Made by a program: the position numbers and the translations under genes. A stretch of 41,632 nucleotides of DNA from a virus (lineage: Duplodnaviria; Heunggongvirae; Uroviricota; Caudoviricetes), in the IMG/VR virus record IMGVR_UViG_2579778554_000004; one strand, given 5' to 3'. This document shows positions 7,077 through 29,554 of this stretch, in pieces (the stretch's first letter is position 1; each line of letters opens with the position of its first letter). Under the pieces are notes generated by a model. It ran no database searches. It worked only from the letters and a program-made list of their open reading frames with translations, and was not told the DNA's origin.

Positions 7077-7090
7077 CGTGACATGTCACA
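7077..7090. promoter_or_regulatory. Conserved 14-mer CGTGACATGTCACA (copy 1 of 3)
   Basis: Identical 14-mer also at 27323-27336 and 29541-29554; contains palindrome GTGACATGTCAC. Confidence 0.4.
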
Positions 7091-7114
7091 GGCCGCTTTC
7101 GCGGCCTTGTTTTT
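7091..7114 (+). terminator. Intrinsic terminator after antA-like gene
   Basis: GGCCGC-tttc-GCGGCC followed by TTGTTTTT. Confidence 0.6.
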
Positions 7115-7345
7115 AACGAATGCCACCGCCGCCTGGGCGGGAATCCGCAGAACGCCCACCGCAGCGGGAGCCGTCAGCGGCAGTATCGCTGTCGTGCTGA
7201 CAACGACCGGCAAAGGCCTGAGTTGAAGCTACCAGAGACAACAAAACGAACAGTGCAGCAAATGCTTTTTTCATTGTGAAATTTCCATCTATAAGCCACC
7301 TCAATGTGGCGTCAATGAGTGTAGCACTGACTTTTGTTTCGTCCA

Positions 7346-7368
7346 CAAAAAAGCCCGCGCTGCGGGCT
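7346..7368 (-). terminator. Intrinsic terminator for the 210-aa gene
   Basis: Hairpin GCCCG-cgctg-CGGGC immediately after stop at 7373, followed on minus strand by U-run (A-tract 7346-7351 on plus). Confidence 0.65.
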
Positions 7369-7372
7369 TCTA

Positions 7373-8005
7373 TTAATGCAGTTTATCTTTGCTTATAACC
7401 AGTAGTCTGTGGGTATGCACATCTTTATCACTGCCCCAACAGAAATCAGCCCACTGGCTATAGAAATCATCCCATGATGTCATGAAGCTAAGAGGTCTAT
7501 CTTCTTCAGAGCCATCTGAAACGTATACATTATATCCTGGGGTGTTTATAGCCCAAGAAATCATTCTTTCCCAGAATCTTCTCCCATCGATTGTTTGTTG
7601 CTCATCAGATACAACGATCGCATATTGCTCTAGGAAGAACTGAAAAAAAATCTGAGGCAAACCATGAACAGCACGGTCATGAATAACATTAGGCGTACGC
7701 CATACCATGATCTGCGTACATGTTCTTTTGGCTTCGACGATATCTTCCCGAAAGATTAACTTAACCGCATACACCGTTTCTGGAGTATCGCTGGTAGTAA
7801 TCATTCTGTAATGATCGCCATTACAAGATTTTACAAGGCGATAACCATAAGGTGTTGTGAATCCCGGAAGAACGAAATCAACCACACCTTTCGCTAAGTA
7901 GCTTTCGGTGTGACTAGTGTTCTTCTCAGACATGTTCAGTTTTCTATCGAAATCTGCTTCTGGGATAATGTATGGCATCGCTTTTCTTGTTGTATTTGTT
8001 CTCAT
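7373..8005 (-). CDS. Hypothetical 210-aa cytoplasmic protein, orphan accessory gene (no family recognised)
   Basis: Strong SD GGGAGG before ATG; own operator-bearing upstream region and own terminator; AT-richer than flanks by eye. Confidence 0.75.
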   Translation of the reverse strand: MRTNTTRKAMPYIIPEADFDRKLNMSEKNTSHTESYLAKGVVDFVLPGFTTPYGYRLVKSCNGDHYRMITTSDTPETVYAVKLIFREDIVEAKRTCTQIMVWRTPNVIHDRAVHGLPQIFFQFFLEQYAIVVSDEQQTIDGRRFWERMISWAINTPGYNVYVSDGSEEDRPLSFMTSWDDFYSQWADFCWGSDKDVHTHRLLVISKDKLH

Positions 8006-8064
8006 TTCGTCCTCCCATGTTTGGCTACAGGACGCGTTTTGAAGGGAAGATTAAAAATGCTTTC

Positions 8065-8079
8065 TTACCCTTGAGGTAA
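8065..8079. promoter_or_regulatory. Operator-like palindrome TTACC-N5-GGTAA (site 3)
   Basis: ttacccttgaggtaa, about 60 bp upstream of the 210-aa gene start. Confidence 0.5.
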
Positions 8080-8131
8080 TAGTACGCTATTCACCCCCAG
8101 TCTGCAATCTGTACAGAATTATTTAAAGGCA

Positions 8132-8394
8132 CATCCCTGTGCCGCCGCCCGTCAGAAGAACCCTGCCTTGTCGTTGATGTACTCCGCGTGCGTCTGGATA
8201 TCACGCAGGCATTTGCTCACACCGACGATGTAGCAGAACATGGTGGTCAGTTCCGCCGCCGCGCCCGATACGTCGTGCCCGTCTTCCTGTAACTGGTTCA
8301 GCAGATTCATCAGCAGTGAGTTCTCCGTCAGGCCGAGAACACCCGACGGCGAATGAATCAGGCTGCGGTAGCCGGGCTTCAGCGGGGCACTGTA
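8132..8394. repeat. Inner inverted repeat, right copy (3' end of bro-like gene)
   Basis: Reverse complement matches 6789-7060 with only a few mismatches. Confidence 0.8.
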
Positions 8395-8847
8395 GGTTTT
8401 GTTCTCTATCTTCATCGCCTGCATTACTGCTGACGCCGTGGCGTTGGCTACCTGGTCGGCAACCATCTTTATGCGTTCTTCCTGCGGGAGCGAGTTTTTA
8501 ATGTAACTTCCGGTGCGGCGGATCTGAGGAAGAACCTCACCTGTAACCCATTTACGAAAGCGGTATGGGATAGTGCCTGGTGTCACCGCATCGCGGCAGC
8601 GGAGGATCAGTGTGTAGAGGCCTGACTCGGAGATAATGATCGATTCTTGCTCACCGCCAGGGGTGTCGGTTGAAGCGACGCCCTTCTCATCATCATCAAG
8701 TTTTCGAACAGCATCTCGATGGTTTGCTATGCCTATAGCCCGACAAACATCTGAAGCGATAAACCATGGCTCACCATTAATGACGATTACCCGTATATCG
8801 GCTTGAGATTCGAAAGAAAAAATGGACGTGCTTTTTGTAGCTGTCAT
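8152..8847 (-). CDS. Antirepressor-like protein, Bro-N/P22-Ant-type N-terminal domain plus shared C-terminal domain
   Basis: N-terminus IRVIVINGEPWFIASDVCRAIG typical of Bro-N/Ant; C-terminus identical to antA-like C-terminus. Confidence 0.8.
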   Translation of the reverse strand: MTATKSTSIFSFESQADIRVIVINGEPWFIASDVCRAIGIANHRDAVRKLDDDEKGVASTDTPGGEQESIIISESGLYTLILRCRDAVTPGTIPYRFRKWVTGEVLPQIRRTGSYIKNSLPQEERIKMVADQVANATASAVMQAMKIENKTYSAPLKPGYRSLIHSPSGVLGLTENSLLMNLLNQLQEDGHDVSGAAAELTTMFCYIVGVSKCLRDIQTHAEYINDKAGFF

Positions 8848-9131
8848 AGTGGTTACCTTTTAGTCTGGTTAATCACCACTACCGACGCCAATCGGTTGGT
8901 GGTGAACTGTGCAGGGTTGGCGTAACCGGCTAAAAGGACCCGGCGCACCTTTCGGTGCCCCCACACAGCCCACCATAATACGAATGTGGCCGTGCTATAC
9001 GCATAAAAAAACCGCTTGCGCGGTGAATGCGCCTTTTAGTAATCCGGGACGCCAATCCCGGCACTGGATTTTGCCAGTGCCCGATTACTATGGCACAAGA
9101 GGAGTGCGGTGTAAATTTACCGCAAAGGTAA
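8848..9131 (-). repeat. Right copy of duplicated structured leader, upstream of the bro-like gene
   Basis: Reverse complement of 6099-6384; operator TTACCGCAAAGGTAA at 9117-9131; terminator hairpin ACCGC-ttgc-GCGGT plus A-run 9005-9024. Confidence 0.75.
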
Positions 9132-9278
9132 TGATAGACACAGACAAACATTAAAATCAACCATATTTGGTTAATGTGTGTAAAAGAGCCAGCAGCGAGA
9201 AATTGTGCCGCGACGTAAAATAACGAGCATCTGCTGGCTTACAACCAGCGATGTTTCAAATTTGTCACTACTATCAAC

Positions 9279-9626
9279 GTGCCATTACACGGCGCAGAGC
9301 TTTATGTCGTCAATCACAACGGCGAACCGTACACCCCAATGAAACCTATCGTTGAAGGCATGGGTATGGTTTGGGCTGCTCAATTTGTTAAATTAAAACA
9401 GAGATTTGTCAAAGGTATTTCGGAAATCGAAATACCTTCTGCTGGCGGTAAACAGTTAATGATATGCCTTGCCTTTCGTAAGTTTGCGGCTTGGCTTTCA
9501 AGCATTCAGCCAAACAAAGTCTGCCCTGTAATCCGCGAAAGTATTGAAACATCAACCGTATCGATATCGACACGGTTGATTATGACGGTAACTTATTTCC
9601 GTGTGTACTATTTCTCCCGCCACTAA
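9279..9626 (+). CDS. Hypothetical protein, possibly a truncated antirepressor-like N-terminal domain
   Basis: 115-aa ORF; C-terminal 20 aa look like out-of-frame sequence; family assignment uncertain. Confidence 0.4.
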   Translation: MPLHGAELYVVNHNGEPYTPMKPIVEGMGMVWAAQFVKLKQRFVKGISEIEIPSAGGKQLMICLAFRKFAAWLSSIQPNKVCPVIRESIETSTVSISTRLIMTVTYFRVYYFSRH

Positions 9627-9923
9627 CTAATTATATTTGTCTTTAAAAATTTCATGGAATGATTGAGAGTAAGACTTGCCATACTTCAAATAACATTCTT
9701 CATCCAACTTTCTTAATGAACTTCGAACCTGTTCGTGGCATACAGCAAAAAAAACAAGTCCGCCGCCTATTAATACCCCTATTGATATTGGGTTCGCAAC
9801 ATCCCATAAAAAATCGGCTAACAGAGCAAATACCCCACCGCCGCCAATAAATGCCCCTATAGCTCGGTTCGTTTTAGCTTGCTCATAGCGTCTCTCTAAC
9901 TCACTAAACTCTTTAATATCCAT
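9627..9923 (-). CDS. Small two-TM membrane protein; candidate superinfection-exclusion or toxin-like factor
   Basis: GAGGTG RBS; two Gly-rich hydrophobic helices (GAFIGGGGVFALL, IGVLIGGGLVFFAV); AT-rich. Confidence 0.55.
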   Translation of the reverse strand: MDIKEFSELERRYEQAKTNRAIGAFIGGGGVFALLADFLWDVANPISIGVLIGGGLVFFAVCHEQVRSSLRKLDEECYLKYGKSYSQSFHEIFKDKYN

Positions 9924-10000
9924 ATAAGCACCTCTATAAAATTACTTCATCACCGGATCCACCTGGTTTATTAGTGGCGCAATCCAGAACAGATGTTTTA

Positions 10001-10849
10001 TTATTGTGAAGTTTTCATTGCACGATTTTCAGCTCTGAATTCAAGAACCGTTTCAATATTTCTTTCCTTCAGCATATCCATAACATTTTTATTCATTTGA
10101 CTATCACTGGTTAATAACTGATAAACGTTTCTTTTCTCTTTATCAGAATTTTCTTTAACAGCTGATTTGCATGACAAATGCTTATTGAAATTTTCTACAT
10201 CGCTAGTACATGAATTTACGGCTGCGGATGAAATATCAGACGCTGAAGAAACACCGTCATCTAAACGTTTTATAGCATTTTCTATACATGAGTTAAGGGA
10301 ATAAACGACAACTGAGCGATACCCTTCAGACGCACACCATTCTAAATTTCTTGAAGGATCGAGTGGTTTTACTTCGCTGGATTGAATTAACTTGTCAAAC
10401 ACTGACTTATATTCAATCTGTTTTTTATCTATAGCCCATACCTCAGTAGCTGATTTATAATGCCCAGTATGCTTATTAACATCAAACCCATGTTTTATAA
10501 GCAAATCTGCCCATGAAAGATTTATTGATTCATTGTTATGAGGCCATTTCCCTGTCAGAACCGCCCCCATAGACCCCATATATCCGCCATATGATGGTAT
10601 AGCACCATGGCTCAATAACTTCTCAGCAACCACAGGGCAATTAATTACATAGGAGACGTAAAGCCCATTCCATAAAGCCCCTCTATAGTAATCGCCGCGA
10701 TTAGGTTCTTTTAAGTCGATAGCCTTTGATAATTGTTCACACGTTTTGCATGCATCAAAGTTATCCTTATTGCATTGCAATGAACTGGCGGCTGTAGGAT
10801 TTACAGCGACTATTGAAAGCACAATGCCAAACAAATTTATTTTTTTCAT
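10001..10849 (-). CDS. Secreted protein with possible ankyrin-like repeats, AT-rich moron coupled to the late operon
   Basis: Signal peptide MKKINLFGIVLSIVAVNPTAASS; many Cys; start 1 nt after stop of the 1129-aa gene. Confidence 0.65.
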   Translation of the reverse strand: MKKINLFGIVLSIVAVNPTAASSLQCNKDNFDACKTCEQLSKAIDLKEPNRGDYYRGALWNGLYVSYVINCPVVAEKLLSHGAIPSYGGYMGSMGAVLTGKWPHNNESINLSWADLLIKHGFDVNKHTGHYKSATEVWAIDKKQIEYKSVFDKLIQSSEVKPLDPSRNLEWCASEGYRSVVVYSLNSCIENAIKRLDDGVSSASDISSAAVNSCTSDVENFNKHLSCKSAVKENSDKEKRNVYQLLTSDSQMNKNVMDMLKERNIETVLEFRAENRAMKTSQ

Positions 10850-10850
10850 C

Positions 10851-13800
10851 CTATTTCATCTGCTCTTCAACTTTATTCAGTAATGGTGATATCGCCCACA
10901 GGTTCTGAAAAGGTAGCATTTTACGGACCGCGTGGGTTTGCTGGCTGTCAAATTCTCCGTTAAGTACACCATTCGCAACCGTCGCGGCATCACCGCCAAG
11001 ATCAAAGGTAGGACCAAGTAAAGCACCAATAGCATTACGACTCTGAAACCTTGATACCGGAGGCGCACCAAACATCGCGCCAAGACCAAACCTACCGCCG
11101 CTTATGTTCTCAACGGTATTCAGCGGCTCAGAGAGCCAGCCAAGCATTCCGCCCCGGTCGATCCCCTCTTTCACAAGGTTATTCCAGCTGTAGTCGATAT
11201 CGCGACCGCTTAACTTCTGTTTCATCATATAGACCATTGAGCCAAGCGCAATCGTGCCAAGCGCACCAAGATAGAATGCAGCATCGCCCTGCTGGATACC
11301 AGATACCAGCACCCTGTTATGCTGTGCGAAGATAAACGTTTTGAACTGCGTGATCATCTTCCAGCCTTCTTTACTAAAAAACAGCGGTGTATCACCTACG
11401 CCAGGCGTTACAATCACTGAGTCTACATCTTTCAGCACTGCAGACTGGAAAATCTCTCTAGCGAAACGGTCATCCCACAGATGACTATGCCCGGTTAACA
11501 GCCCGTCCATATCCTCTCCGTGCTTCCCGAATTGCTCCCCGATTCGGCGCAGAACATCTTCATTGATGCCGACCTGTGCCATCTTCCGCATTTCACTTTT
11601 GGAGAGCGTGCCACCAGCAGAAACTTGGCGAGCCGCGTCAAGTATCCTCGACTGCACTATCATCCCAGACCATGATTTAAGTGCGCTGTTCCACTGATTC
11701 ATCAGCGTCCAGTTACCGAATTTCTGCGTCATCCAGTTCAGACCTCGCTCAGCGGCGCTTCTCCGGCTATAGGGGTCAGTAAGATCCGCTATAGCCTTTG
11801 TACGCGTAGACAGGACATAATCAAGCCCAACTGCCATTTCTCGCAAATCCCTGGTTGCAATTTTCACTGAGTCCATATTTTTAAGCATGCTTACCATTGG
11901 TCCGAGAGATTTTCTCAGGCCATGCTGCATCATCGGTCGCATCAGATCAGTTGCAGCGGAGACGGTCATTCCACCAAGCAAACGGAGGAAGTTAATATTC
12001 CTAGCAACTCGCCCGGCACGAACAAAGAAACTGCGTGGATCTTGAGGTGCGCCGTAAGTACCAAGCAGTCGGTCACGCATAGCCGTAATATCCCTAATAT
12101 CAGCCTCCCGTTGCTTCTCAAGAGCTGCACGTCGTTTAGGTGTTTTAGCCTCTTTTATTAGCCGGGTATATTCCTCACTAACCTGACGGATTTGCTCCCC
12201 CATATCTTTACGGCCAAACTGCGCAGTCAGCTCAATTTCTGGTGCCACCTGCCGGAGATAACTTTCCATGATGTAGTTAACATCTGATTCAAGAAAATCT
12301 TCTATACGCTCATCAGGAATAAGCAGCGTTCGGCTTTTAGTGAAACCAGCCCGACCAACGAGTCTCTCTGGGATAATATCGGCTGGTACAAGCCCGGAAG
12401 GTGCGCCTATTATTTTATTCACGATCTCGTCAGCAGCGTCCTCTGCTTCCTCTCGGGATAGAGGCTCCATCTGCTTCAGTGCTCGCTCGCGGCTTGCATT
12501 CAGCCTTGTGGTTGAATTTGCCCGTTTTTGCAGTCGGCGAAGCTCAGAACGATATTTCCGTGGATTATCCAGCAACTCCATATGGCGCTGATAGACAGGA
12601 AGCTCACTCTTTGCCTGCGCTATATCATCAAGGCGTGTTTTAAGGTCAGAGCTTTCTTTCATCATTCTTGCCTGAAGTTTTTCTGATGAAGTCTCGGCCA
12701 ACTCTTTTTCTATTCTTGTAAGACGCGCCTGTGTGTCAGTCTCCTGAGATATAAGCTTATTTCGTTTATCCAGTTCTTCCATGAGTAGAATTTTTTTACC
12801 AGACCATTTCTCCGCTTCAGCGATTTCACTAGCGAGAGCATCAGCGCGCGGTGCTGATTCCTCTGCAGTTTTTAGCAATGAATTTATCTTTTCAATTCGC
12901 TGACCTGCTTTGTCAGCACCTTTGGCACTAATCCCTTGTATCCAGTTGGCAATTCGCCCTCTGAATTCAGTGCGGTCGGAAAGTATCTTATCGAACTTAT
13001 AAATGCGGGGAAGATAACTCTTCGCCGTCACGACATCGATATCCTCAGGAAGGATCCCCAATTCCTGCATACGGGCTTTTGTGGTCTCAAAAATGGGGCG
13101 GATTCTGGCGGCTGCTTGTGAAACCTCAGGAATATCACTCTGATCACCACGGCGCATAGCCATGCCAACAGCTTCATTGAAATCAATAAAGTTCATCCTC
13201 TTCACGCCGCGGGCGCTGACAGATTTGCTGTACTGCTGGTAAGCATCACGAGTAGCTTCCATCTGCTTATAAAGCATGGCGTCGTATTGCTTAATCTTAG
13301 TCTCGACTGCCGTAAACGTAGCCAACCCCTCATCATTTTTGGCGAAGAAATAGTTATTTTCGGCAAGCTGCTGGTTAATCTGACGGGAAACAAGAGATGG
13401 TGATTGCGCCAAGCGGCCAGCAGGAGTGACACTCAACGTTTTGTTAGCAAGTCCAAGTCCAGCAAGCTGTTCCTGATCGAGTGTGGTATTGAAAACCTGA
13501 GCTGCACCAATGCTTTGAGGAGAATCCATACCTCGCAAATGATTACCTACTGAGTTAACCACTGCCTCGCGCGCGCTAGGTCCAGCAAGTAGCTGTGCAC
13601 CAGCACCAAGGATCCCACCAACGAGAGCATCAACAACAACGTTCGATACGCTCTCCATCGGTGAGCGAGCTTCCTGAGTGGCCTGCAATGCGGCCTCTGA
13701 AGCAACACTGCCAGCAGCATTGGCTAAAGCAAAACGTCCGGCTGTTTCTGCAATACGACCGCCACGAACGACAGCGCCGAACGGAATAAACATAGAAATC

Positions 13801-14240
13801 GCATTGAATGGATCTGCTAATCTCATTGCTACAGAAGAGACTGTACCAGCAAATCCCAAGCCTGAATTGTATTCCATGTCAGCTCTCTGCTGATCGATTC
13901 GATGTTTAATTGCCATTGTTTCTTCATGCGAACCGGAGTTGATAAACGAATCTGCAAAATCTTCATAGCCTTTAATATCTGCTGCATCGTTATCAAATGG
14001 GTTATATCCTTCAACCCTGTCAAACTGACTGAAAGGAGCACTGGCAATAAAGCTACCCAGCGTGTTATCTATACGAAATGCTGCTTGTCTAGACCTTTGA
14101 ACGCGTTGATCACTGGTAAATGGGTTCACAGCAGAAAGCAAAGAAGGTGTTTCCATATAGAAATTACTGTCATCAGGTGCTGCTATTTGCTGAATACCCT
14201 CGCCAAGCAACTCTTTAGGATCCTGTTCATATATCGGCAT
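10851..14240 (-). CDS. Internal virion/ejection protein (T7 gp16-like position), 1129 aa
   Basis: Size and position after the 915-aa protein in T7-like order; coiled-coil-rich centre. Confidence 0.8.
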   Translation of the reverse strand: MPIYEQDPKELLGEGIQQIAAPDDSNFYMETPSLLSAVNPFTSDQRVQRSRQAAFRIDNTLGSFIASAPFSQFDRVEGYNPFDNDAADIKGYEDFADSFINSGSHEETMAIKHRIDQQRADMEYNSGLGFAGTVSSVAMRLADPFNAISMFIPFGAVVRGGRIAETAGRFALANAAGSVASEAALQATQEARSPMESVSNVVVDALVGGILGAGAQLLAGPSAREAVVNSVGNHLRGMDSPQSIGAAQVFNTTLDQEQLAGLGLANKTLSVTPAGRLAQSPSLVSRQINQQLAENNYFFAKNDEGLATFTAVETKIKQYDAMLYKQMEATRDAYQQYSKSVSARGVKRMNFIDFNEAVGMAMRRGDQSDIPEVSQAAARIRPIFETTKARMQELGILPEDIDVVTAKSYLPRIYKFDKILSDRTEFRGRIANWIQGISAKGADKAGQRIEKINSLLKTAEESAPRADALASEIAEAEKWSGKKILLMEELDKRNKLISQETDTQARLTRIEKELAETSSEKLQARMMKESSDLKTRLDDIAQAKSELPVYQRHMELLDNPRKYRSELRRLQKRANSTTRLNASRERALKQMEPLSREEAEDAADEIVNKIIGAPSGLVPADIIPERLVGRAGFTKSRTLLIPDERIEDFLESDVNYIMESYLRQVAPEIELTAQFGRKDMGEQIRQVSEEYTRLIKEAKTPKRRAALEKQREADIRDITAMRDRLLGTYGAPQDPRSFFVRAGRVARNINFLRLLGGMTVSAATDLMRPMMQHGLRKSLGPMVSMLKNMDSVKIATRDLREMAVGLDYVLSTRTKAIADLTDPYSRRSAAERGLNWMTQKFGNWTLMNQWNSALKSWSGMIVQSRILDAARQVSAGGTLSKSEMRKMAQVGINEDVLRRIGEQFGKHGEDMDGLLTGHSHLWDDRFAREIFQSAVLKDVDSVIVTPGVGDTPLFFSKEGWKMITQFKTFIFAQHNRVLVSGIQQGDAAFYLGALGTIALGSMVYMMKQKLSGRDIDYSWNNLVKEGIDRGGMLGWLSEPLNTVENISGGRFGLGAMFGAPPVSRFQSRNAIGALLGPTFDLGGDAATVANGVLNGEFDSQQTHAVRKMLPFQNLWAISPLLNKVEEQMK

Positions 14241-21422: not shown

Positions 21423-21466
21423 TCCTGCAATAAAGGGGCCGAAGCCCCTTGTCTGATCCGCGAGGC

Positions 21467-21811: not shown

Positions 21812-21812
21812 C

Positions 21813-22250: not shown

Positions 22251-22301
22251 CTTCTTTCTCCATTAGTGGGTCTGTTACGACCCACAGGTTAATAACAGGC
22301 G

Positions 22302-23294
22302 TTACACCACGCGGGCTTCTGTTTCCAGAAGCGCATCAGTTTCACGGATTGGTACACCACGGAATGAAGTCCACCACTCGCCTTCTGTCTCTTTTACGCT
22401 GATCGCCAGAGATGTTTTCTCCAGAGATTGCAGATCAAGAGCCTGGCCTACAGTGCGGTTCATGTAGAACACCGGGCGACCCATGCCACGATTTGGAATG
22501 CGATGCAGTGCTTTAACCATCAACTTCGCAATATTTGCGGCAGAGGAAGGTTCTGAAAGATTGCTGACATCGATGTTTGCAATGCGAACAACATAACGCC
22601 AGTCACGCAGAGCAAGTCCGTTATCCCATTTGTAATGGGTGCGATAGCCTTCGTACTTGCCGCCATTAGCATCTTCCAGTGTCACCTGGCCTTTATCTTC
22701 CATCTGGATGCCAGCCTTCTGCCCTTTCGGGAAGATGCCATGCACGGTGTTTTCGCCCCACACCACTAACCAGATTGAGGTGTTATCTGTACCCGTGCCA
22801 CCAGCATCAATGATGTTCTGAGCATTACCCGCAGACAGGCTGGAATAGCGGGAGGACAGTCCCATAAACTGCTGAGGGTTAACGCTGGAATCACCATAAA
22901 ACAGCGTCTGCGCCATCTGCTGATTCATCGCTTCAATAAATGCGCGGTCTTCAGACAGGCGGAATTCGGCGGTATTGCCGTTCAGATCAGCCAGTGACTT
23001 ATCGACTTCCGCATAGGTTTCCAGCATGCCAACGGAATCGGTTACCTGTACTGTGGTTGATTTGCTTGGCTGTACGCCATAGTTCAGCAAACGCCAGGTA
23101 GCTGAAGGTAAACCAGAACGAATGGTGGTTCGGTGTCCGGTAGGAAGGTTCCCTTCGACAAAAGGCATATCCTGAAGGATCGGGTTAGTTTGACCGAGAA
23201 GCTCGATAATCTTATCGACTTTCCCGTTTGGATCGACGCGCTTACCCCAGTCAGCCAGCGTTAGCGCAGTTAAGCCTTTAACAGCCATTGTCAT
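22302..23294 (-). CDS. Major capsid protein, 330 aa
   Basis: Position after scaffold gene; size matches epsilon15-type coat protein. Confidence 0.85.
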   Translation of the reverse strand: MTMAVKGLTALTLADWGKRVDPNGKVDKIIELLGQTNPILQDMPFVEGNLPTGHRTTIRSGLPSATWRLLNYGVQPSKSTTVQVTDSVGMLETYAEVDKSLADLNGNTAEFRLSEDRAFIEAMNQQMAQTLFYGDSSVNPQQFMGLSSRYSSLSAGNAQNIIDAGGTGTDNTSIWLVVWGENTVHGIFPKGQKAGIQMEDKGQVTLEDANGGKYEGYRTHYKWDNGLALRDWRYVVRIANIDVSNLSEPSSAANIAKLMVKALHRIPNRGMGRPVFYMNRTVGQALDLQSLEKTSLAISVKETEGEWWTSFRGVPIRETDALLETEARVV

Positions 23295-23302
23295 TTCCTC
23301 TC

Positions 23303-24004
23303 TTATTTGCCATAGAGCACTTCGGCCGCACTACGCTGGCCTTCATTACCACCGGTGACCATGCCATCTTCAGACATCGCCTTTCCGATTTTCACGAACG
23401 TTTTGACCAGATCAGGGTGATTACCCAGCCCGGTGGTGTTCAGATATTCTTTGAGTTCAGGTGTCCCGAACTGGTCAAGCGCACGCTGTGCGGCGCTAAG
23501 GTTAGAAATCAACTTGTCGCCACCGATTTCTTTGTCAGCTTTTACATCAGCAGCCCACTGCTCGGTTGTTTTCTGCCAGGCTTCTGCCTGGCGCTGCTGA
23601 ACACCTGCCAGAATCTTCGGATAAGCATCAACCAGCTTTTGCGCTTGCTCGTTGGTCAGGTTTAGTTCTCGCGCCACCGGCTCGAATTCCTTCAACGCTT
23701 CTGTATCCAGCTCTACGCCTTCGGCAGCCTGAAACTCGTACTTCTCAGGCGCACCCTCTGTTTTATCGCCGTCCTTTTTTTCATCCTGCTTATCGTTTTC
23801 AGGCTTTTTGTCATCAGCAGGTTTATCGCCATCAGCAACAGGTTGTGGCTTATCACCTTCCGGTTGTGATGGATCACCAACTGGAGCAGGGTTATCACCT
23901 GCAGGCGCTGACGGTTCTGACGCAGCCGGAGCTGCTCCACCATCGACTGGTTGCTCATTGCAAAGACGGCGATACAGCAAACGCTCAAATAAATTCATGA
24001 TCAC
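23303..24004 (-). CDS. Scaffolding protein
   Basis: Acidic, Pro/Asp/Lys-rich N-terminal half and helical C-terminal half between portal and capsid genes. Confidence 0.7.
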   Translation of the reverse strand: MIMNLFERLLYRRLCNEQPVDGGAAPAASEPSAPAGDNPAPVGDPSQPEGDKPQPVADGDKPADDKKPENDKQDEKKDGDKTEGAPEKYEFQAAEGVELDTEALKEFEPVARELNLTNEQAQKLVDAYPKILAGVQQRQAEAWQKTTEQWAADVKADKEIGGDKLISNLSAAQRALDQFGTPELKEYLNTTGLGNHPDLVKTFVKIGKAMSEDGMVTGGNEGQRSAAEVLYGK

Positions 24005-24297
24005 TCCTGTTCACTGGCCTCTTTGGCCATCTTCAAATACTGTTCAGGGCAATGCGCCATAACGCGCTGAAACAGTTCCAGCGCCAGATTGCGTTGCCCC
24101 TCATTAAATGCCATAGCCATAGCGTCCATCGGTGAGATAGCGGAAAACACACGGCCTTTCTCCAGCACCGACCAGACAACGCGACGCCCCTGTTCACTGC
24201 TCATGACAAAGCAAATGTCATCAATTTCACGCTGTGCCATGTCACGTTGCTTACGGGCGTTTTCTTCTTTCAGTTGATCGTCTTCGTAATCTGTCAT
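24001..24297 (-). CDS. Hypothetical small head-assembly protein
   Basis: ORF with coupled start and stop between portal and scaffold genes. Confidence 0.55.
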   Translation of the reverse strand: MTDYEDDQLKEENARKQRDMAQREIDDICFVMSSEQGRRVVWSVLEKGRVFSAISPMDAMAMAFNEGQRNLALELFQRVMAHCPEQYLKMAKEASEQE

Positions 24298-25973
24298 TGT
24301 GATTGCCCACCCTGACCACTAACTGCATTCGCCATAGCTGACAAAACACTCGGATCCGAAGTTTTAGCTTCGCTTAGCGTCTTGGCACCCTGTGCCGCCG
24401 CCATCCCCATCGCCATCATTTGTTGCTGCTGTTGTTGCTGTGCCCGTTGCTGGCGAGCCTGCTCAACCTGTTCCTGCGGAACAATGACGGTTGGAGACAC
24501 TCCGGACATATCAGCGAATGCATCGATCGCCTGATCAACGTTGAGTTTGTCGAGAGCTTCTGGTTTCGCTTGCGCAAGTTGACCAATGAAGTTGACCGTA
24601 GACGCCAGACTGGACAGGCCGATAGACTTCTGCGCCTGAGCCATGACGGAAATGTATTCGACCTTCAGGGGCATACCTTCCATCGCGTCAGGCGGTGGCG
24701 GCAGCATGTTTTTACGCACCATCATCGAGAAAGCGCGGTCAATGAGAGGATTAAGACATTCGTCGTTCAGACGCTCCAGAACCGGCCCCAACATCAGAAG
24801 TTTTTCTTCTTTCATTTCGATCACCGCTTCAACAGGCATCGAGCGGGTATTGATGTTCTGCAACATCATGAACAGATCGACAAAGTAGGCGCTGTTAATG
24901 ATTTGACGGGTGTCCTGAATGTCTGCCACCAAATCTGCTGTACTGGGGTTAACCAGATAAGCAGGCCTGAAACCATCCTGACCAGTAATCTGATCGATAT
25001 ACGTGATGTCGCCAGGAAGAAGGGAGGCACGCTGATTCTTGAGGGAAGTCGGAGCAACCATCGGCGGATTGGTGGCTTTATCAATCAACTGCGACTTGCG
25101 CTTCTGGAGAAGCTGCAATGCCTTAACAGGTCCAAGCGCCAGCATACCCGGGCATGATGATCCATAAACATCTTCGCCGTTAACTTCCCAGCGCGGAGCC
25201 ATAATTGGAAACTCATCGAATCCGGACTCACGCAACAACTTGTCGTTATCGCCACCAACCTCGTAATAAACCGATTTGAATGGCTTGTTCTTGCTATCCA
25301 GCTTCGATGTATCGCGGTCAATGTTCGGGTAAACCGAATGCATCACTTCAATCCACTTCTCGTAGGTTCCGCTTTCCCACATGCTTTTTACGGATTCGCT
25401 GACGTTATTTAGCCCGAACTCCTGAACAAGCTGACGAACAGTCATAGAGAACTTGCGAAAACAGGTGTCCACACTGCCACGAGGTGAGTTAGCCAGGTAG
25501 TAACTGCCTATCGGGAATGGCATTGTGCGAATGATGTCCTCGTCATCCTCCAGCACTGCCATTGCACCAGTGCTGTATGTGCCGAGGCTTCCGTATAACT
25601 GCGGCAGCGACTGATAGAGATTCGACTTATTGAACATATCGTTCATGCGGTTCTGCACCGCCTCAAGCCACAACTTAACAGGGCCATAATCCATCATTTC
25701 AGGATCTGGCGTAGCCAGGCGAAACCACGGACGCGCGGGGCTTGTGATGCCTGACATCATGCCGCTGGCGAGAGTGCGCGCCGCCATAGTCCCGGTCGAA
25801 TCAATAATGCGTGTATTGCGTCGATCGTTACGGTTAACCTCAGAAGTCAGAAAGCGGGAACCACGCGGGTTGATGTAATCACTCAACTCGCGCCAGTGCG
25901 GCTCGAACGACTGACGCTCGCTTTCAAGTTGTGCGAACTGTTTGTTCAATCGCTCTTTAGTTGTTTCCGCCAT
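24294..25973 (-). CDS. Portal (head-to-tail connector) protein, 559 aa
   Basis: Size, position after terminase, Gln/Ala/Met-rich C-terminal tail resembling T7 gp8-type portals; GGAG RBS. Confidence 0.85.
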   Translation of the reverse strand: MAETTKERLNKQFAQLESERQSFEPHWRELSDYINPRGSRFLTSEVNRNDRRNTRIIDSTGTMAARTLASGMMSGITSPARPWFRLATPDPEMMDYGPVKLWLEAVQNRMNDMFNKSNLYQSLPQLYGSLGTYSTGAMAVLEDDEDIIRTMPFPIGSYYLANSPRGSVDTCFRKFSMTVRQLVQEFGLNNVSESVKSMWESGTYEKWIEVMHSVYPNIDRDTSKLDSKNKPFKSVYYEVGGDNDKLLRESGFDEFPIMAPRWEVNGEDVYGSSCPGMLALGPVKALQLLQKRKSQLIDKATNPPMVAPTSLKNQRASLLPGDITYIDQITGQDGFRPAYLVNPSTADLVADIQDTRQIINSAYFVDLFMMLQNINTRSMPVEAVIEMKEEKLLMLGPVLERLNDECLNPLIDRAFSMMVRKNMLPPPPDAMEGMPLKVEYISVMAQAQKSIGLSSLASTVNFIGQLAQAKPEALDKLNVDQAIDAFADMSGVSPTVIVPQEQVEQARQQRAQQQQQQQMMAMGMAAAQGAKTLSEAKTSDPSVLSAMANAVSGQGGQSQ

Positions 25974-25987
25974 TTCAATGACTCCGG

Positions 25988-26194
25988 TTACTGACCAAGC
26001 AGCGTTTTACCGCTGGTATTAGCAGTTGATGTGTCGCCCTGAGAACCGGTAAGCAGCGTAGAACTACGACCAGCAGCAGCGCGACGGCGACGAGTTTCTT
26101 CGTCGCGGGCATCAACAACGGCGGCATCCTGCTCCTGTGGTGCTGCCTGAACTTCTGGTGTTGCAGGCACTGATGGTGAGCTACCCATGCACAT
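25988..26194 (-). CDS. Hypothetical small protein upstream of portal
   Basis: 68-aa ORF; preferred over overlapping 25975-26214 frame whose composition looks non-coding. Confidence 0.3.
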   Translation of the reverse strand: MCMGSSPSVPATPEVQAAPQEQDAAVVDARDEETRRRRAAAGRSSTLLTGSQGDTSTANTSGKTLLGQ

Positions 26195-26284
26195 ATCAAT
26201 GACTCCGTACGCAATTAAATTATTACCAATTTAACCACATATGATTTATTTATCGTAGACAGTTGACATTTAACGTGCGAATTA

Positions 26285-26299
26285 TTACCTTTCAGGTAA
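26285..26299. promoter_or_regulatory. Operator-like palindrome TTACC-N5-GGTAA (site 5)
   Basis: ttacctttcaggtaa at the start of the tRNA/moron insertion. Confidence 0.5.
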
Positions 26300-26621
26300 C
26301 CAAAGAGTTCATTCCGGTTACTAACCTGACTGGCTTGTCGTTAAATTGAACAGGTGGAGTGAGCTTTTATTTTGAGCAGTACGGCGTATGGCACATGCGC
26401 CGATAGCGGTCTGGATGCGTTTAAGGGGCACCCTCCCTGGCTGTGGCAAACGAACCAGGTAGCCGGAATGTGCAAGTCGAGCGGTTTTATTCCGCGCACG
26501 GGGATTCACCATCCCGGCGATTCGGTGTGACGCCTCGGAAGAGACGAGGGTACAACGATGAGAGCATTTATGGAGCCGCGACAAAGTGTGGCGCCTTAAC
26601 AGGCTAAGTGCTCTCAGCGTT

Positions 26622-26698
26622 GTGGCATTAGCTCAGTTGGACAGAGCAACCGCCTTCTAAGCGGTTGGTCGCAGGTTCGAATCCTGCATGCCACGCCA
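26622..26698 (+). tRNA. tRNA-Arg, anticodon UCU (reads AGA), CCA encoded
   Basis: Cloverleaf by hand: acceptor GTGGCAT/ATGCCAC, D-arm GCTC..GAGC, anticodon stem ACCGC/GCGGT with loop CTTCTAA, T-arm GCAGG-TTCGAAT-CCTGC, discriminator G plus CCA. Confidence 0.9.
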
Positions 26699-26741
26699 GA
26701 ATCACGCCTAAGGACCGTGATGCCAGAAGTTCCAGGGGCTT

Positions 26742-26784
26742 GGCGGTGATGGTTTCCCTTGAAGGACTATCACCGCCCTTTTTA
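26742..26784 (+). terminator. Hairpin plus T-run downstream of tRNA
   Basis: GGCGGTGAT...ATCACCGCC then CTTTTT. Confidence 0.45.
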
Positions 26785-26861
26785 CAGCAGGACGCCATTG
26801 CGATGACTTCATGCTGTAAACCAGTACAGCCACGGAAGGCATAACTCATTGCTTCCAGTTC

Positions 26862-26886
26862 GCCCGGTTCGCCGGGCATTTTTTTA
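26862..26886 (+). terminator. Intrinsic terminator-like hairpin immediately upstream of the RBS of the 140-aa gene
   Basis: GCCCGG-ttcg-CCGGGC followed by ATTTTTTT, then AAGGTGAGATC-ATG. Confidence 0.5.
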
Positions 26887-26896
26887 AGGTGAGATC

Positions 26897-27319
26897 ATGA
26901 AAACAGCCGACATGCTAGCTAAATATCTAAATGAATGGCCGTGCAAATATGTACGCATTGTTCAGGGTGATGACTCAATTTTTTATGGTGTTTTTGCAGG
27001 AAATGAAATGCTTTGTGAAGCAATTCCAGGTGAGCGACTTGCCGGGTTAACGCTTAGCGATGACCATGGAATAGGAGTTACTTGCCATGACTGGATTTCA
27101 GCGCAGAAAACTGAAATGGAAAAAGGCAATGTGTTTGATATTTCTCGCGCTGTATACGCCAAAGAAAAAAGTGATGATGATTACATGCGCGAAAACTTAT
27201 ACAACATGAAGTTACAATGCCTGGCTGAAGTGCTTAGTAAAAGATCTTTACTTGATGTGGTTGGTGCTGAGCAGGACGCCAAGGCAATCAACGCCGCATT
27301 CGATAAAATAACCTTCTAA
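26897..27319 (+). CDS. Hypothetical 140-aa protein (moron on the opposite strand to the late operon)
   Basis: AAGGTGAG RBS; followed by 14-mer CGTGACATGTCACA and a terminator. Confidence 0.7.
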   Translation: MKTADMLAKYLNEWPCKYVRIVQGDDSIFYGVFAGNEMLCEAIPGERLAGLTLSDDHGIGVTCHDWISAQKTEMEKGNVFDISRAVYAKEKSDDDYMRENLYNMKLQCLAEVLSKRSLLDVVGAEQDAKAINAAFDKITF

Positions 27320-27322
27320 CGC

Positions 27323-27336
27323 CGTGACATGTCACA
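27323..27336. promoter_or_regulatory. Conserved 14-mer CGTGACATGTCACA (copy 2 of 3)
   Basis: Exact repeat of 7077-7090. Confidence 0.4.
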
Positions 27337-27339
27337 ATC

Positions 27340-27364
27340 AGCCCGCCGATTCGCGGGCTTTTTT
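27340..27364 (+). terminator. Intrinsic terminator after the 140-aa gene
   Basis: AGCCCGC-cgattc-GCGGGCT followed by TTTTTT. Confidence 0.65.
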
Positions 27365-28838
27365 ATGCAAAAGGATCATAGTCTGTGATGGCTTTGCCTT
27401 GCTGGTTCTGCTGCCCAGGAATTCGCAGACGCTTCGACACAGGGAAAGCAAACGTCAGCAGTAGCGCATCGCCTTTACCCGGCGAACGCCCAAGCCGCTC
27501 CTTGATATCTTCCTTCGGTTCGATAACGATTTTACCGTCCACACGAACTTTGTACTCTGCTGCCGACAGGTCGTCCGCTGTTTCCTGGTCATCCAGCATG
27601 CCGCCGAGCCTCAGCCATGTCTTGCATGAGTTGAACATCTCCCCACGCTTGTTGAGCATCTGCGGGTCAGTAGACGCGCCACCGAACGGAACAAGTTGCC
27701 ATGTACGACCCCAGCCGTCACCGATTGACTTCAGACCAGTTCCGTAACCGAAGTCGATGAACACTGCGTCAGCCTGGTACTGGTCTTCAAAGTCAGCGAT
27801 ACGCTTCGCCATAATCAGATCGTCAGTGGTCTTGTTGCCAGTCCACAGCACCTTACTGTGCAGCCCCTGCCGCAGGTATATCACAGCGTCATCAACGCCT
27901 GAGTATGCCGGGTCAACGCCGATTATCACCGGAGCATGTGCAACCTGCGCAGCGGTTACCACCCGTTTCATTGCCTCGTCAGTAAGACCGGTAGGGATAA
28001 ACTGCAATTCAGATGCATCAGGGAATATGCCGCGCACACGGATTTTAACGAAGTCGCTATCTTCCCCGTAGTCATCAACCCATTTCTGCAACTGCTGTTT
28101 GTTAGTGCCTTCCACCGTCCGGCTGTCAATCTGCGCAGTTTTCCAGCGGTGTTTATATTTGCGGAAACATTCGCGGAAACGCCCGGTGTTACGTGTAGGG
28201 TTTCCGAACGCTACCCAGATAATCTCAGTGTCTTCGTCCGTAAGCGCACCCTCAGCAACTTCCCACACCAGATCCGCAATGTTCGACGCTTCATCGAATA
28301 CCACGATGATGCGTTTGCGCTCGTTGTGTAGTCCGGCGAACGCCTCAGTGTTGTGCTCAGACCAGGGGATTGCGTCAGCTCGCCACCGCTTGTCGTGCCC
28401 AGGGTCATTGCTGTACATCGCGGTAGCGGTACAGGTAAACCAGTCTTTCGTGATAGCAAGGTTCGACCACTTGATAATTTCCGGCCAGGTCTTCGTTCGT
28501 AGCTGGTTGTCGGTGTTGGCGGTCACCACAACCTTACAATCCTCGCAAGTGGACATGCCCCAGTTGATCAGCATTGAGATGAATGCGGATTTACCAATAC
28601 CGTGACCCGAAGCGCGTGCCAGCATAAGCGGCTGATAGCGCGTCTCTGGATTCTGCAGGTGATCACGTATCTCTCGGAACGCATCAGCCTGCCACTGACG
28701 TGGACCGGTGGCATGTGCCAGTTCAGTCCCATCTTCCCCCCACGGGAACGCATAGAGGGCATAGCCAAGCGGATCGTGAGTGAACCCTGCAATATCCTCG
28801 ATTAACTGCTCTTCAGGAGATAACGCTGTATCTGTCAC
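27363..28838 (-). CDS. Terminase large subunit
   Basis: 491 aa; Walker A-like ARASGHGIGKS; acidic nuclease-type C-terminal half; coupled to small-subunit gene. Confidence 0.9.
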   Translation of the reverse strand: MTDTALSPEEQLIEDIAGFTHDPLGYALYAFPWGEDGTELAHATGPRQWQADAFREIRDHLQNPETRYQPLMLARASGHGIGKSAFISMLINWGMSTCEDCKVVVTANTDNQLRTKTWPEIIKWSNLAITKDWFTCTATAMYSNDPGHDKRWRADAIPWSEHNTEAFAGLHNERKRIIVVFDEASNIADLVWEVAEGALTDEDTEIIWVAFGNPTRNTGRFRECFRKYKHRWKTAQIDSRTVEGTNKQQLQKWVDDYGEDSDFVKIRVRGIFPDASELQFIPTGLTDEAMKRVVTAAQVAHAPVIIGVDPAYSGVDDAVIYLRQGLHSKVLWTGNKTTDDLIMAKRIADFEDQYQADAVFIDFGYGTGLKSIGDGWGRTWQLVPFGGASTDPQMLNKRGEMFNSCKTWLRLGGMLDDQETADDLSAAEYKVRVDGKIVIEPKEDIKERLGRSPGKGDALLLTFAFPVSKRLRIPGQQNQQGKAITDYDPFA

Positions 28839-29509
28839 TGATTACCATCCTGACGTTCTTTGAGTCGCTTCCTGGCTGCTGCTATGCGATCAGCAATTGT
28901 CACATTCACATTAACATCCAGACGTTCTTTGAATGCGTTGACATCAACATGCTTACCAATCAGCTCAAGGTTCTTCACCTTGTCAGGCCATTTAATTTTT
29001 TTGAGGATTGTCTCTATTGAATCCTCGTTCATGTTCATGATGGTCGATGACAGATCAAAGCCACTAAGCGTAGTGCGCCAGATTTTCGGCCACTCACGGA
29101 TTGGTTTAAGGCTCCCATCGTCGTTGAGGATGTCGATCACGTCCATCTGGTCGATCTCCACCAGGCGCATGAGAACGTAATCAGCACTGACACGCATTCG
29201 TTTGTTGCGCTCCTCCATCAACTCGGCAATCCGTTTCTGAATGCGTTCATCGCGCATCATGACACTGGCTTTAACTGCCGCTGTATTTGGGGAGAATCCT
29301 GCGTTAATCGCAGCCTGAGTCTGGTTTTCAGGCGTTTTGATGTATGACTGGCAATAAGCCTCCTGCATTGCTGTGAGCGGCTTAAATTGCGTTGATTTGC
29401 GTTTATAGGTTTTAGGTTCAGCAGGCATCATAACTACCGTGGTAATTGTTACCGTTGTGGTAATAATACCATGCAAAATAAAGCCGCCATAGTTGGCGGC
29501 AGTATTCAA
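28835..29509 (-). CDS. Terminase small subunit (true start may be the internal Met pair near 29431)
   Basis: Immediately upstream of and overlapping large subunit; basic helical N-terminal region. Confidence 0.7.
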   Translation of the reverse strand: MNTAANYGGFILHGIITTTVTITTVVMMPAEPKTYKRKSTQFKPLTAMQEAYCQSYIKTPENQTQAAINAGFSPNTAAVKASVMMRDERIQKRIAELMEERNKRMRVSADYVLMRLVEIDQMDVIDILNDDGSLKPIREWPKIWRTTLSGFDLSSTIMNMNEDSIETILKKIKWPDKVKNLELIGKHVDVNAFKERLDVNVNVTIADRIAAARKRLKERQDGNQ

Positions 29510-29540
29510 AATCCATCAAATTCATCATGCATAATCTACT

Positions 29541-29554
29541 CGTGACATGTCACA
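29541..29554. promoter_or_regulatory. Conserved 14-mer CGTGACATGTCACA (copy 3 of 3), directly upstream of the terminase small-subunit gene
   Basis: Exact 14-mer in the 40-bp gap between the 29550 gene stop and the terminase small-subunit start. Confidence 0.4.

What the first reader, a model, noticed from the sequence alone, without database searches (positions are those of the whole stretch)
7077..29554. Exact 14-mer CGTGACATGTCACA repeated three times at module junctions
Identical copies lie just after the antA-like gene, just after the 140-aa gene (each followed by an intrinsic terminator), and in the short gap directly upstream of the terminase small-subunit gene. Three exact copies of a 14-mer with a GTGACATGTCAC palindrome at moron 3' ends and the head of the packaging genes are unlikely by chance. 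It could be a regulator site, a packaging-related signal, or a recombination linker marking where morons were acquired.
Basis: seen in the sequence. Interest (0 to 1): 0.5.

Follow-up and report, generated by a model that had tools for sequence, protein, structure and literature searches.

The report
Operator sites of a phage regulator
The repeated 14-letter palindrome is real and is most likely the DNA docking site of a small, uncharacterised DNA-binding protein that this prophage encodes right next to one copy; the same protein-plus-site pair recurs in many unrelated temperate phages.

Summary
CGTGACATGTCACA occurs exactly three times, at 7077, 27323 and 29541 (0 of 100 shuffles), in the contexts described. 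A fourth copy with one mismatch lies at 24233-24246.

The window is an epsilon15/phiV10-like prophage next to guaA. Site 3 overlaps the TGA stop codon of a 112-aa gene (PHROG 536, no Pfam family). Its model (pLDDT 92) is a ribbon-helix-helix (RHH) fold plus a C-terminal cysteine cluster.

Every phage lineage checked that encodes a homologue (30-64% identity) carries 1-4 GTGAC-NN-GTCAC-type sites, against about 0.04 expected per genome. One site always lies at or near the gene. These are N15, ZF40, Vibrio K303, an Aeromonas phage and P2-like phages. Lambda, P2, mEpX1 and 108 kb of host chromosome have none.

The best reading is an operator (two abutting inverted 7-bp half-sites, as for the omega repressor) for this regulator. 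The direction of regulation is unresolved; I infer a repressive gate at cistron and operon boundaries.

A packaging signal, an RNA hairpin and a matS site are not supported. A moron-borne recombination linker is not supported as the cause, although mosaic joints do abut the motif.

This is a new variant of a known kind, of moderate interest.

The parts
29541..29554 (.). Site 3. Reads TGTGACATGTCACG in the direction of the late genes (- strand). It overlaps the TGA stop (29550-29552) of the RHH gene and lies 31 nt before the annotated TTG start of terS.
   Evidence: Conserved in 75 of 80 close relatives exactly and in 4 more with one mismatch; the remaining locus is cut off.
29550..29888 (-). 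Gene for a 112-aa protein (PHROG 536; phiV10 gp55 / epsilon15 gp49 family). It has a basic N-terminal helix, an RHH core and a C-terminal cysteine cluster. This is the proposed binder of the motif.
27323..27336 (.). Site 2. It sits between the stop codon of the 140-aa opposite-strand gene (3 nt away) and that gene's terminator. In the late direction it follows terL.
   Evidence: Present in 64 of 76 assessable relatives, 50 of them exact. At least 7 different genes abut it in relatives.
27340..27365 (+). Intrinsic terminator of the + strand unit (AGCCCGCCGATTCGCGGGCT followed by TTTTTT).
   Evidence: The terminator sequence differs between relatives while the motif stays fixed.
24233..24246 (-). 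Fourth site with one mismatch (CGTGACATGGCACA), inside ORF 24001-24297 just after the portal gene.
   Evidence: By my calculation about 0.013 such matches are expected by chance. It is conserved in more than 40 relatives. The same variant, GTGACATGGCAC, is the conserved partner site in P2-like arrays.
7077..7090 (.). Site 1. It sits between the AntA-domain gene (stop at 7041) and a terminator shared with the convergent small lipoprotein-like gene (7113-7346, -).
   Evidence: The same motif-plus-terminator block is found in phiV10 (19492) and PAS61 (32673) at the end of the late operon.
7090..7115 (+). Intrinsic terminator (AGGCCGCTTTCGCGGCCT followed by TGTTTTT).
29506..29532 (-). Tentative 8-codon mini-ORF (MHDEFDGF*). 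It starts 8 nt after site 3, and its TGA overlaps the TTG start of terS.
   Evidence: The reading frame is kept in most relatives but lost in 4 of 80. Function not shown.
28835..29509 (-). Small terminase gene, the first late gene downstream of site 3.
   Evidence: Pfam Terminase_2, E 1.4e-29.
26897..27319 (+). 140-aa opposite-strand gene (PHROG 4846) in a variable cassette slot that ends at site 2.
6385..7041 (+). AntA-domain antirepressor-like gene that ends 35 nt before site 1.
   Evidence: Pfam AntA, E 3.6e-27.

Best explanation
The 14-mer is the operator of a phage-encoded DNA-binding protein. That protein is the 112-aa RHH plus cysteine-cluster product of gene 29550-29888, whose stop codon lies inside site 3.

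The 14 bp read as two abutting inverted 7-bp half-sites, YGTGACA and TGTCACR. This is the format used by RHH regulators such as omega of plasmid pSM19035, where one dimer binds each 7-bp unit.

The gene lies at the far end of the early-right operon, so the protein would accumulate late in the early phase. It would then occupy 3-4 sites: the border between its own gene and the packaging genes, the 3' ends of two opposite-strand gene units just before their terminators, and one site inside a late ORF.

Shown: the sites are non-random and conserved, the protein has an RHH fold, and gene and site family co-occur across distant phages.

Inferred: the protein binds these sites. Also inferred: it acts negatively, as a gate or roadblock on RNA polymerase crossing cistron and operon borders, or as a repressor of the cistron that starts just downstream. 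This would control terS-operon expression and insulate convergent units. Neither the sign of the effect nor the step affected is established.
For: 1. Non-randomness: three exact 14-mers and a fourth with one mismatch.

2. Conservation: site 3 is present in 79 of 79 assessable close relatives and site 2 in 64 of 76. The terminators, downstream genes and neighbouring morons around them vary.

4. Co-occurrence with distant homologues:
- N15 gp46 (34% identity): 3 copies of GTGACTGGTCAC, one holding the gene's TGA stop.
- ZF40 gp22 (64%): 3 copies of GTGACATGTCAC, one 2 nt after the stop.
- Vibrio K303 (31%): 3 sites, one 225 nt after the gene and one 19 nt before terS.
- Aeromonas 13AhydR10PP (30%): 4 copies of GTGACCGGACAC, one 13 nt before the gene's own ATG.
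- Yersinia P2-like phage (41%): a site holding the TGA stop.
- 35 of 37 P2-like loci of the clade represented by homologue P0155 (37% identity): GTGACATGGCAC, then 21 nt, then TGTGACATGTCACA (starts 33 bp apart).
- 6 of the 7 loci of the clade represented by homologue P0192 (31% identity): GTGACCGGTCAC-type sites after the gene.
About 0.04 sites are expected per genome by chance (my calculation).

5. Negative controls: lambda, P2 and mEpX1 have no homologue and 0 sites. 108 kb of host chromosome has 0 sites.

6. Format matches omega operators: unspaced heptads (T/A)ATCAC(T/A), with a minimal site of two heptads (PMC4627068).

7. Placement: the site sits 8-19 nt before a start codon, directly upstream of the ribosome-binding site, in at least 8 cases across 4 lineages.
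Against: - No binding data exist; the protein-to-site link rests on comparison alone.
- Most operators are not at recognisable promoters, unlike classical RHH repressors. Some lie inside ORFs, for example in ZF40 gp08 and gp12 and in N15 repA.
- The beta-strand residues differ between the epsilon15-like clade and the P0155 clade although both use GTGACATGTCAC. The reading element is therefore unclear; it may be the conserved basic N-terminal helix.
- A roadblock at site 3 would also block late-gene read-through unless it is relieved, and no separate late promoter was found.
- 12 of 76 relatives lack site 2, so that site is dispensable.
Confidence: 0.68

Rival explanations
1. The motif acts in RNA. 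The transcribed palindrome forms a small hairpin next to ribosome-binding sites or terminators. It serves as a translational operator (possibly bound by the cysteine-cluster protein, as Mu Com binds mom mRNA) or as a processing or stability element.
For: The site lies directly 5' of ribosome-binding sites in several lineages. All copies lie in transcribed regions. In the window, an 8-codon mini-ORF starts 8 nt after site 3, and its stop overlaps the terS start.
Against: The predicted hairpins are weak (-1.5 to -5 kcal/mol) and no better than shuffled sequence. The conserved asymmetric variants GTGACATGGCAC and GTGACCGGACAC break the stem without compensating changes. The half-site sequence is conserved across clades rather than covarying. 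The associated protein has a fold that binds double-stranded DNA.
Confidence: 0.1
2. The motif is a recombination linker or cassette boundary: a short conserved joint at which morons are swapped. It would not be a protein-binding regulatory site.
For: Non-homologous sequences begin within 0-5 nt of the motif at all three sites. At least 7 different genes abut site 2 and at least 7 left-hand contexts abut site 1. In P2-like phages variable cargo starts right after the array. The phage encodes RecT-type recombination proteins.
Against: Close homologues of one moron family in Akira, mEpX1 and MK54 have no motif behind them; mEpX1 was confirmed to lack the regulator gene. The motif also lies inside ORFs (ZF40, N15, window 24233). 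It tracks the RHH gene across unrelated backbones. The gaps between genes here are so short (0-8 nt) that any gene swap must end at the motif. The inversion of the site-1 block relative to phiV10 is explained by inverted copies of ant gene DNA, not by the motif.
Confidence: 0.08
3. The motif is a site for a host protein, for example MatP acting on a matS-like sequence or another nucleoid factor. It would tie phage DNA into host chromosome organisation.
For: The half-sites are identical to those of matS (GTGAC[AG]N[TC]GTCAC; PMC3603311). They are conserved across Escherichia, Pectobacterium, Yersinia, Vibrio and Aeromonas phages. K303 also has one true 13-bp matS-consensus site.
Against: The spacer is 2 bp, not 3, in every copy, which fails the matS definition. 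The sites co-occur specifically with the phage RHH gene and are absent from phages without it. Prophages are reported to avoid matS.
Confidence: 0.07
4. The motif is a packaging recognition element (a pac or cos accessory site) for terminase.
For: One copy lies just upstream of terS here and in Vibrio K303. One copy follows terL. In P2-like phages the array lies in the stretch between a cos-like GC-rich segment and the portal gene Q.
Against: There are 3-4 dispersed copies per genome. N15 (annotated cos at position 1) has its sites at 28.5, 33.2 and 39.3 kb. ZF40 has none near its terminase genes. The motif stays the same when the gene downstream of site 3 is replaced by an unrelated one in 20 of 80 relatives. 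The apparent match between the phiV10 genome end and the motif is an annotation choice, since the record ends at a stop codon.
Confidence: 0.04

Closest known systems
Omega (ω2) global regulator of plasmid pSM19035 and its heptad operators
   Same: Both are small RHH proteins. The operator is made of unspaced 7-bp units with a TCAC core: omega uses (T/A)ATCAC(T/A), and here the unit is TGTCAC(A/G), matching at 5 of 7 positions. In both, a pair of heptads is the minimal site, several dispersed sites coordinate different functions of one mobile element, and a site lies next to the regulator's own gene (PMC4627068).
   Different: There is no detectable sequence homology. This protein has an extra basic N-terminal helix and a C-terminal cysteine cluster. 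The heptads here face outward, with only 2 per site. The sites are at gene 3' ends, between cistrons or inside ORFs rather than in promoters. No ParA partner is annotated in phiV10 or PAS61.
MatP/matS (Ter macrodomain organiser of Enterobacterales and Vibrionales)
   Different: matS is 13 bp with a 3-bp spacer; this motif always has 2 bp. Profile comparison with MatP is not significant. The sites are in a prophage next to guaA, not in Ter.
Arc/Mnt (phage P22) and CopG-type RHH repressors
   Same: These are phage- or plasmid-encoded RHH dimers that bind short palindromic operators. Arc and CopG-family proteins are among the structural matches.
   Different: Those operators overlap promoters in the immunity or copy-control regions. 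Here the sites lie far from the immunity region, at operon and cistron borders.
DksA/TraR-type C4 zinc-finger proteins (RNA polymerase secondary-channel binders common in phages and plasmids)
   Same: There is a weak profile match of residues 49-110 to TraR and YbiI, with a CxxCGxxIP-like motif and similar Cys spacing (E 0.2-0.3).
   Different: The match is not significant. No family member hits the Pfam zf-dskA_traR model. The fourth Cys is placed differently. The aligned helix is helix B of the RHH core.

Membership tests
Ribbon-helix-helix (RHH) regulator with its operator | Beta-strand, helix, helix fold of the DNA-binding domain | tested here: met
Ribbon-helix-helix (RHH) regulator with its operator | Significant match to a curated RHH sequence family | tested here: not met
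   The query has no Pfam or NCBIfam family. Only 2 of 41 relatives hit RHH_5 weakly (E 0.013), with similarly weak hits to RepB-RCR_reg and RHH_1.
Ribbon-helix-helix (RHH) regulator with its operator | Operator made of short inverted or direct repeats, found near the regulator's own gene | tested here: met
   The 14-mer is two inverted 7-mers. A site lies at or within 250 nt of the gene in six lineages and 0.5-4.5 kb downstream in the P0155-type P2-like clade.
Ribbon-helix-helix (RHH) regulator with its operator | Protein dimer binds the site specifically | not testable with these tools
   This needs EMSA, footprinting or ChIP.
Omega-type heptad operator | Unspaced 7-bp units (T/A)ATCAC(T/A), at least 2 contiguous | tested here: inconclusive
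   CGTGACA|TGTCACA parses as two unspaced heptads with 5 of 7 identity to the omega unit, but facing outward and with G in place of A at position 2.
Omega-type heptad operator | Sites embedded in the promoters of the regulated operons | tested here: not met
   No consistent promoter lies at or after the sites. The sites are at 3' ends, between cistrons or inside ORFs.
matS / MatP | 13-bp GTGAC[AG]N[TC]GTCAC | tested here: not met
   All copies have a 2-bp spacer. There is no 3-bp-spacer copy in the window. The definition is from PMC3603311.
matS / MatP | Binder homologous to MatP | tested here: not met
pac/cos packaging site | A single recognition and cleavage locus at the packaging start, coinciding with virion DNA ends | tested here: not met
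   The window has 3-4 copies. In N15, whose cohesive end is annotated at position 1, the sites are 28-39 kb away. Virion ends of this phage are not testable here.
Intrinsic terminator (motif as part of it) | GC-rich hairpin plus U-run that includes the motif | tested here: not met
   The terminators begin after the motif and differ in sequence between relatives while the motif is fixed. The motif's own hairpin is weak.
Moron-borne linker / cassette end | The element travels with the moron into other phage backbones | tested here: not met
   Gene-66-like morons in Akira, mEpX1 and MK54 have no motif at their 3' ends. mEpX1 has no RHH gene and no site.
DksA/TraR zinc finger | Significant match to the C4 zf-dskA_traR domain | tested here: not met
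   The match to TraR and YbiI chains has E 0.2-0.3 only. None of 41 members gives a Pfam hit.

The most novel reading that the evidence does not exclude
The protein is not a promoter-bound repressor. It would be a site-specific boundary factor that acts on elongating RNA polymerase or on the start of the adjacent cistron. It sits between cistrons, in front of terminators and even inside ORFs, and times the hand-over from early to packaging genes.

Its C-terminal cysteine domain might contact RNA polymerase in a TraR-like way. Its sites differ from host matS by one spacer base, which leaves open competition with, or mimicry of, MatP-type DNA organisation.

Either reading would be a mode of phage gene or genome control not described for RHH proteins.
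Probability: 0.18. Interest if true: 0.72.

Novelty: new variant of a known kind. Interest (0 to 1): 0.45.

Why it matters
The 101-bp stretch that spans the end of this regulator gene, site 3 and the terS start is found in 495 of 5,426 complete E. coli genomes. Homologues with matching sites occur in podo-, sipho- and myovirus-type temperate phages of Escherichia, Salmonella, Klebsiella, Pectobacterium, Yersinia, Vibrio and Aeromonas.

The family has no Pfam model. I found no paper containing the 12-bp core or a 10-bp sub-string of it.

If the link holds, it gives this protein family a predicted DNA-binding specificity and a small, predictable regulon in each phage. It also offers a handle on how epsilon15-like phages, which have no annotated Q-type antiterminator, control their packaging and late genes. 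And it gives a natural test of how a one-base spacer change separates a phage operator from the host matS site.

Tried and rejected
- **Late promoter or activator site.** The scan found one weak promoter-like match using GTGACA as the -35 element at site 3. Nothing comparable exists at sites 1 or 2. In 20 relatives a ribosome-binding site and ATG follow the motif after 8 nt, which leaves no room for a promoter.
- **phiV10 genome end inside the motif as evidence for a cos or pac cut.** The record simply ends at the stop codon of gp55.
- **Leader-peptide attenuator at site 3.** The terminator-like hairpin at 29500-29483 lies inside the terS reading frame. It encodes AANYGG, which is kept as AADYGG in relatives that start terS with ATG there. 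I do not treat it as a terminator.
- **Motif as the breakpoint of the inversion relative to phiV10.** The inverted segment is flanked by inverted copies of ant C-terminal DNA (6766-7051 and 8141-8408).
- **MatP homology.** Not significant.
- **TraR/DksA homology.** E 0.2-0.3 only, with no Pfam support.
- **RNA hairpin.** Weak, with no compensating changes.
- **Literature.** No paper contains the motif. Papers on ZX5, the phiV10 reporter phage and telomere phages gave nothing on this gene or site.
- **Technical dead ends.** The first AF2 run with only close homologues gave pLDDT 62. The afdb50 library was unavailable, and the viral fold library returned only a fragment of the same family.
- **IMG/VR exact scan.** About half of the 128 hits fall in other contexts. 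Those examined include conserved coding sequences (for example the start of a gene reading MRDMSQ...) and arrays of GTGAC-containing repeats.

Full report
**1. The observation**

CGTGACATGTCACA occurs exactly three times on the + strand, at 7077, 27323 and 29541. No dinucleotide-preserving shuffle of the window had even one copy. By my calculation about 3e-4 copies are expected.

- Site 1 follows the AntA-domain gene and abuts a terminator.
- Site 2 lies 3 nt after the stop of the 140-aa gene and 3 nt before a terminator.
- Site 3 lies in the short gap before the small terminase gene.

Three things were missed:
- Site 3 contains the TGA stop codon of the upstream 112-aa gene.
- A fourth copy with one mismatch lies on the - strand at 24233-24246, inside a late ORF.
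- Of all spacings GTGAC-Nk-GTCAC with k = 0-11, only k = 2 occurs.

**2. What the window is**

The window is an epsilon15/phiV10-like (Uetakevirus) prophage. Its late genes are on the - strand. In strain MCJCHV-1 a near-identical prophage lies next to guaA. The 101-bp stretch around site 3 is found in 495 of 5,426 complete E. coli genomes.

**3. Conservation in close relatives**

In 80 IMG/VR loci that encode a protein at least 96% identical, site 3 is exact in 75. It has one mismatch in 4 and is cut off in 1. Site 2 is present in 64 of 76 assessable loci. phiV10 and PAS61 have all three sites; in phiV10, site 3 is split by the ends of the record.

What surrounds the motif is not conserved:
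- Terminators with different sequences follow it.
- At least seven different opposite-strand genes abut site 2.
- Two unrelated downstream genes follow site 3.
- At least seven left-hand contexts precede site 1.

So the 14-mer itself is under selection.

**4. The neighbouring gene**

Gene 29550-29888 belongs to PHROG 536, labelled 'transcriptional regulator'. It has no Pfam or NCBIfam family and no relative of solved structure detectable by sequence.

With a diverse alignment (A2, identities down to 27%), AlphaFold gives pLDDT 92. The model has these parts:
- a basic N-terminal helix carrying the family's most conserved residues (R8, R13);
- an extended segment followed by two helices;
- a C-terminal cysteine cluster.

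**5. The decisive comparison: distant homologues bring the same kind of site**

| Phage or clade | Identity to the window protein | Sites found |
|---|---|---|
| N15 gp46 | 34% | 3 copies of GTGACTGGTCAC or its complement: one holds the gp46 TGA stop and is followed by GGAGGG and the ATG of gp47, one lies after gene 33, one inside repA |
| Pectobacterium ZF40 gp22 | 64% | 3 copies of GTGACATGTCAC, one 2 nt after the gp22 stop |
| Vibrio K303 | 31% | GTGAC(A/G)CGTCAC three times: 225 nt after the gene, 19 nt before the terS ATG, 19 nt before another ATG |
| Aeromonas 13AhydR10PP | 30% | 4 copies of GTGACCGGACAC, three of them directly 5' of a ribosome-binding site, including the gene's own |
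| Yersinia P2-like phage | 41% | one site, again holding the gene's TGA stop |
| 37 P2-like loci (clade represented by homologue P0155) | 37% | 35 carry GTGACATGGCAC, 21 nt, then TGTGACATGTCACA (starts 33 bp apart); in L210 the pair lies between a cos-like GC-rich stretch and the portal gene |
| 7 loci of the clade represented by homologue P0192 | 31% | 6 carry GTGACCGGTCAC-type sites after the gene |

With ten fixed bases, about 0.04 sites are expected per 40-kb genome (my calculation).

Controls without a homologue (lambda, P2 and mEpX1) have zero sites. So does 108 kb of host chromosome, which does contain two true matS sites.

The half-sites stay GTGAC while the central two bases change between clades (AT, TG, CG, GC, AC). 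This is sequence-specific recognition, not base-pair covariation.

**6. How it most likely works**

The 14-mer parses as two unspaced inverted heptads, YGTGACA and TGTCACR. That is the format of omega operators, whose heptad is (T/A)ATCAC(T/A), whose minimal site is two heptads and which bind one dimer per heptad.

I therefore take the motif to be the operator of the 112-aa protein. This part is inferred from comparison and has not been shown by binding.

The gene is the last one of the early-right operon. Its product would therefore appear just before the late phase and occupy three kinds of position:
- the border to the packaging genes (site 3);
- the ends of two convergent units in front of their terminators (sites 1 and 2);
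- one site within an ORF.

In several lineages the site sits 8-19 nt before a start codon, directly upstream of the ribosome-binding site. This points to control of the cistron immediately downstream.

RHH regulators are predominantly repressors. One homologue has the site in front of its own gene. On that basis I commit to a negative gate or roadblock at cistron and operon borders. I rate that specific step at about 40% and the operator identity at about 70%.

**7. Rivals**

- **RNA element.** The hairpins are weak and no better than shuffles. Conserved asymmetric variants break the stem.
- **Recombination linker.** Mosaic joints do abut the motif, but the gaps between genes are only 0-8 nt. 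Homologous morons in Akira, mEpX1 and MK54 have no motif, and mEpX1 lacks the regulator gene. The inversion relative to phiV10 is explained by inverted ant repeats.
- **Host MatP.** The half-sites are the same, but the spacer is 2 bp rather than 3. This fails the matS definition, and the protein is not detectably homologous to MatP.
- **Packaging signal.** There are several dispersed copies. In N15 the sites are far from the annotated cos end, and the motif stays the same when the gene downstream of site 3 is replaced by an unrelated one.

**8. Novelty**

No paper in the library contains the 12-bp core or a 10-bp sub-string of it. The family has no Pfam model.

The kind of system, an RHH regulator with a short repeat operator, is well known. 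Three things are new:
- the family, with its added basic helix and cysteine cluster;
- its matS-like half-sites;
- operator placement at 3' ends, between cistrons and inside ORFs rather than at promoters.

I file it as a new variant of a known kind, with interest about 0.45.

Noticed in passing
window 29506-29532 (- strand): An 8-codon mini-ORF (MHDEFDGF*) starts 8 nt after site 3, and its TGA overlaps the TTG start of terS. This looks like translational coupling. Similar 'M-K-[D/Y]-EFDGF*' ends precede site-2-type motifs in other phages. Relatives with a different downstream gene have its ATG at the same 8-nt distance.
   Followed up: partly
window 6766-7051 and 8141-8408: These are inverted duplicate copies of antirepressor C-terminal DNA. 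They flank a 1.1-kb segment (210-aa gene, small lipoprotein-like gene, terminator, site 1) that is inverted relative to phiV10. The segment could invert by homologous recombination.
   Followed up: partly
window 26622-27319: A + strand unit sits inside the late operon: tRNA-Arg(TCT) followed by a cassette slot. In 80 relatives the slot holds at least 7 alternative genes or is nearly empty. The window's 140-aa gene (PHROG 4846) occurs only in epsilon15-like phages.
   Followed up: partly
window 29483-29500 (- strand): A terminator-like hairpin plus T-run lies inside the first codons of the annotated terS frame. It encodes AANYGG, and the hairpin is kept with a G-U pair in relatives. It is unclear whether it attenuates transcription.
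   Followed up: partly
L250 (Vibrio phage K303) 19491-19503: A true 13-bp matS-consensus sequence (GTGACACCGTCAC) holds the stop codon of orf27. It lies in a phage that also has three 12-bp sites and a ParA-like gene.
   Followed up: no
L253 (phage lambda) 9747 and 19010: Lambda has two GTGAC-N1-GTCAC palindromes and none at any other spacing. This is more than chance would suggest, and it remains unexplained.
   Followed up: no
L021, L040, L050, L069, L107 (IMG/VR contigs): The exact 14-mer also occurs inside dense arrays of CGTGACA/GTCACG repeats next to low-complexity coding sequence. These look like iteron arrays of another phage group and are probably an unrelated use of the same half-site.
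   Followed up: no
L210 6590-6640 and 6847-6925: In P2-like prophages the sites form a phased array with starts about 33 bp apart: two full sites and a third half-site. The array lies between a GC-rich cos-like stretch and the terminator of portal gene Q, and variable cargo begins right after it.
   Followed up: partly
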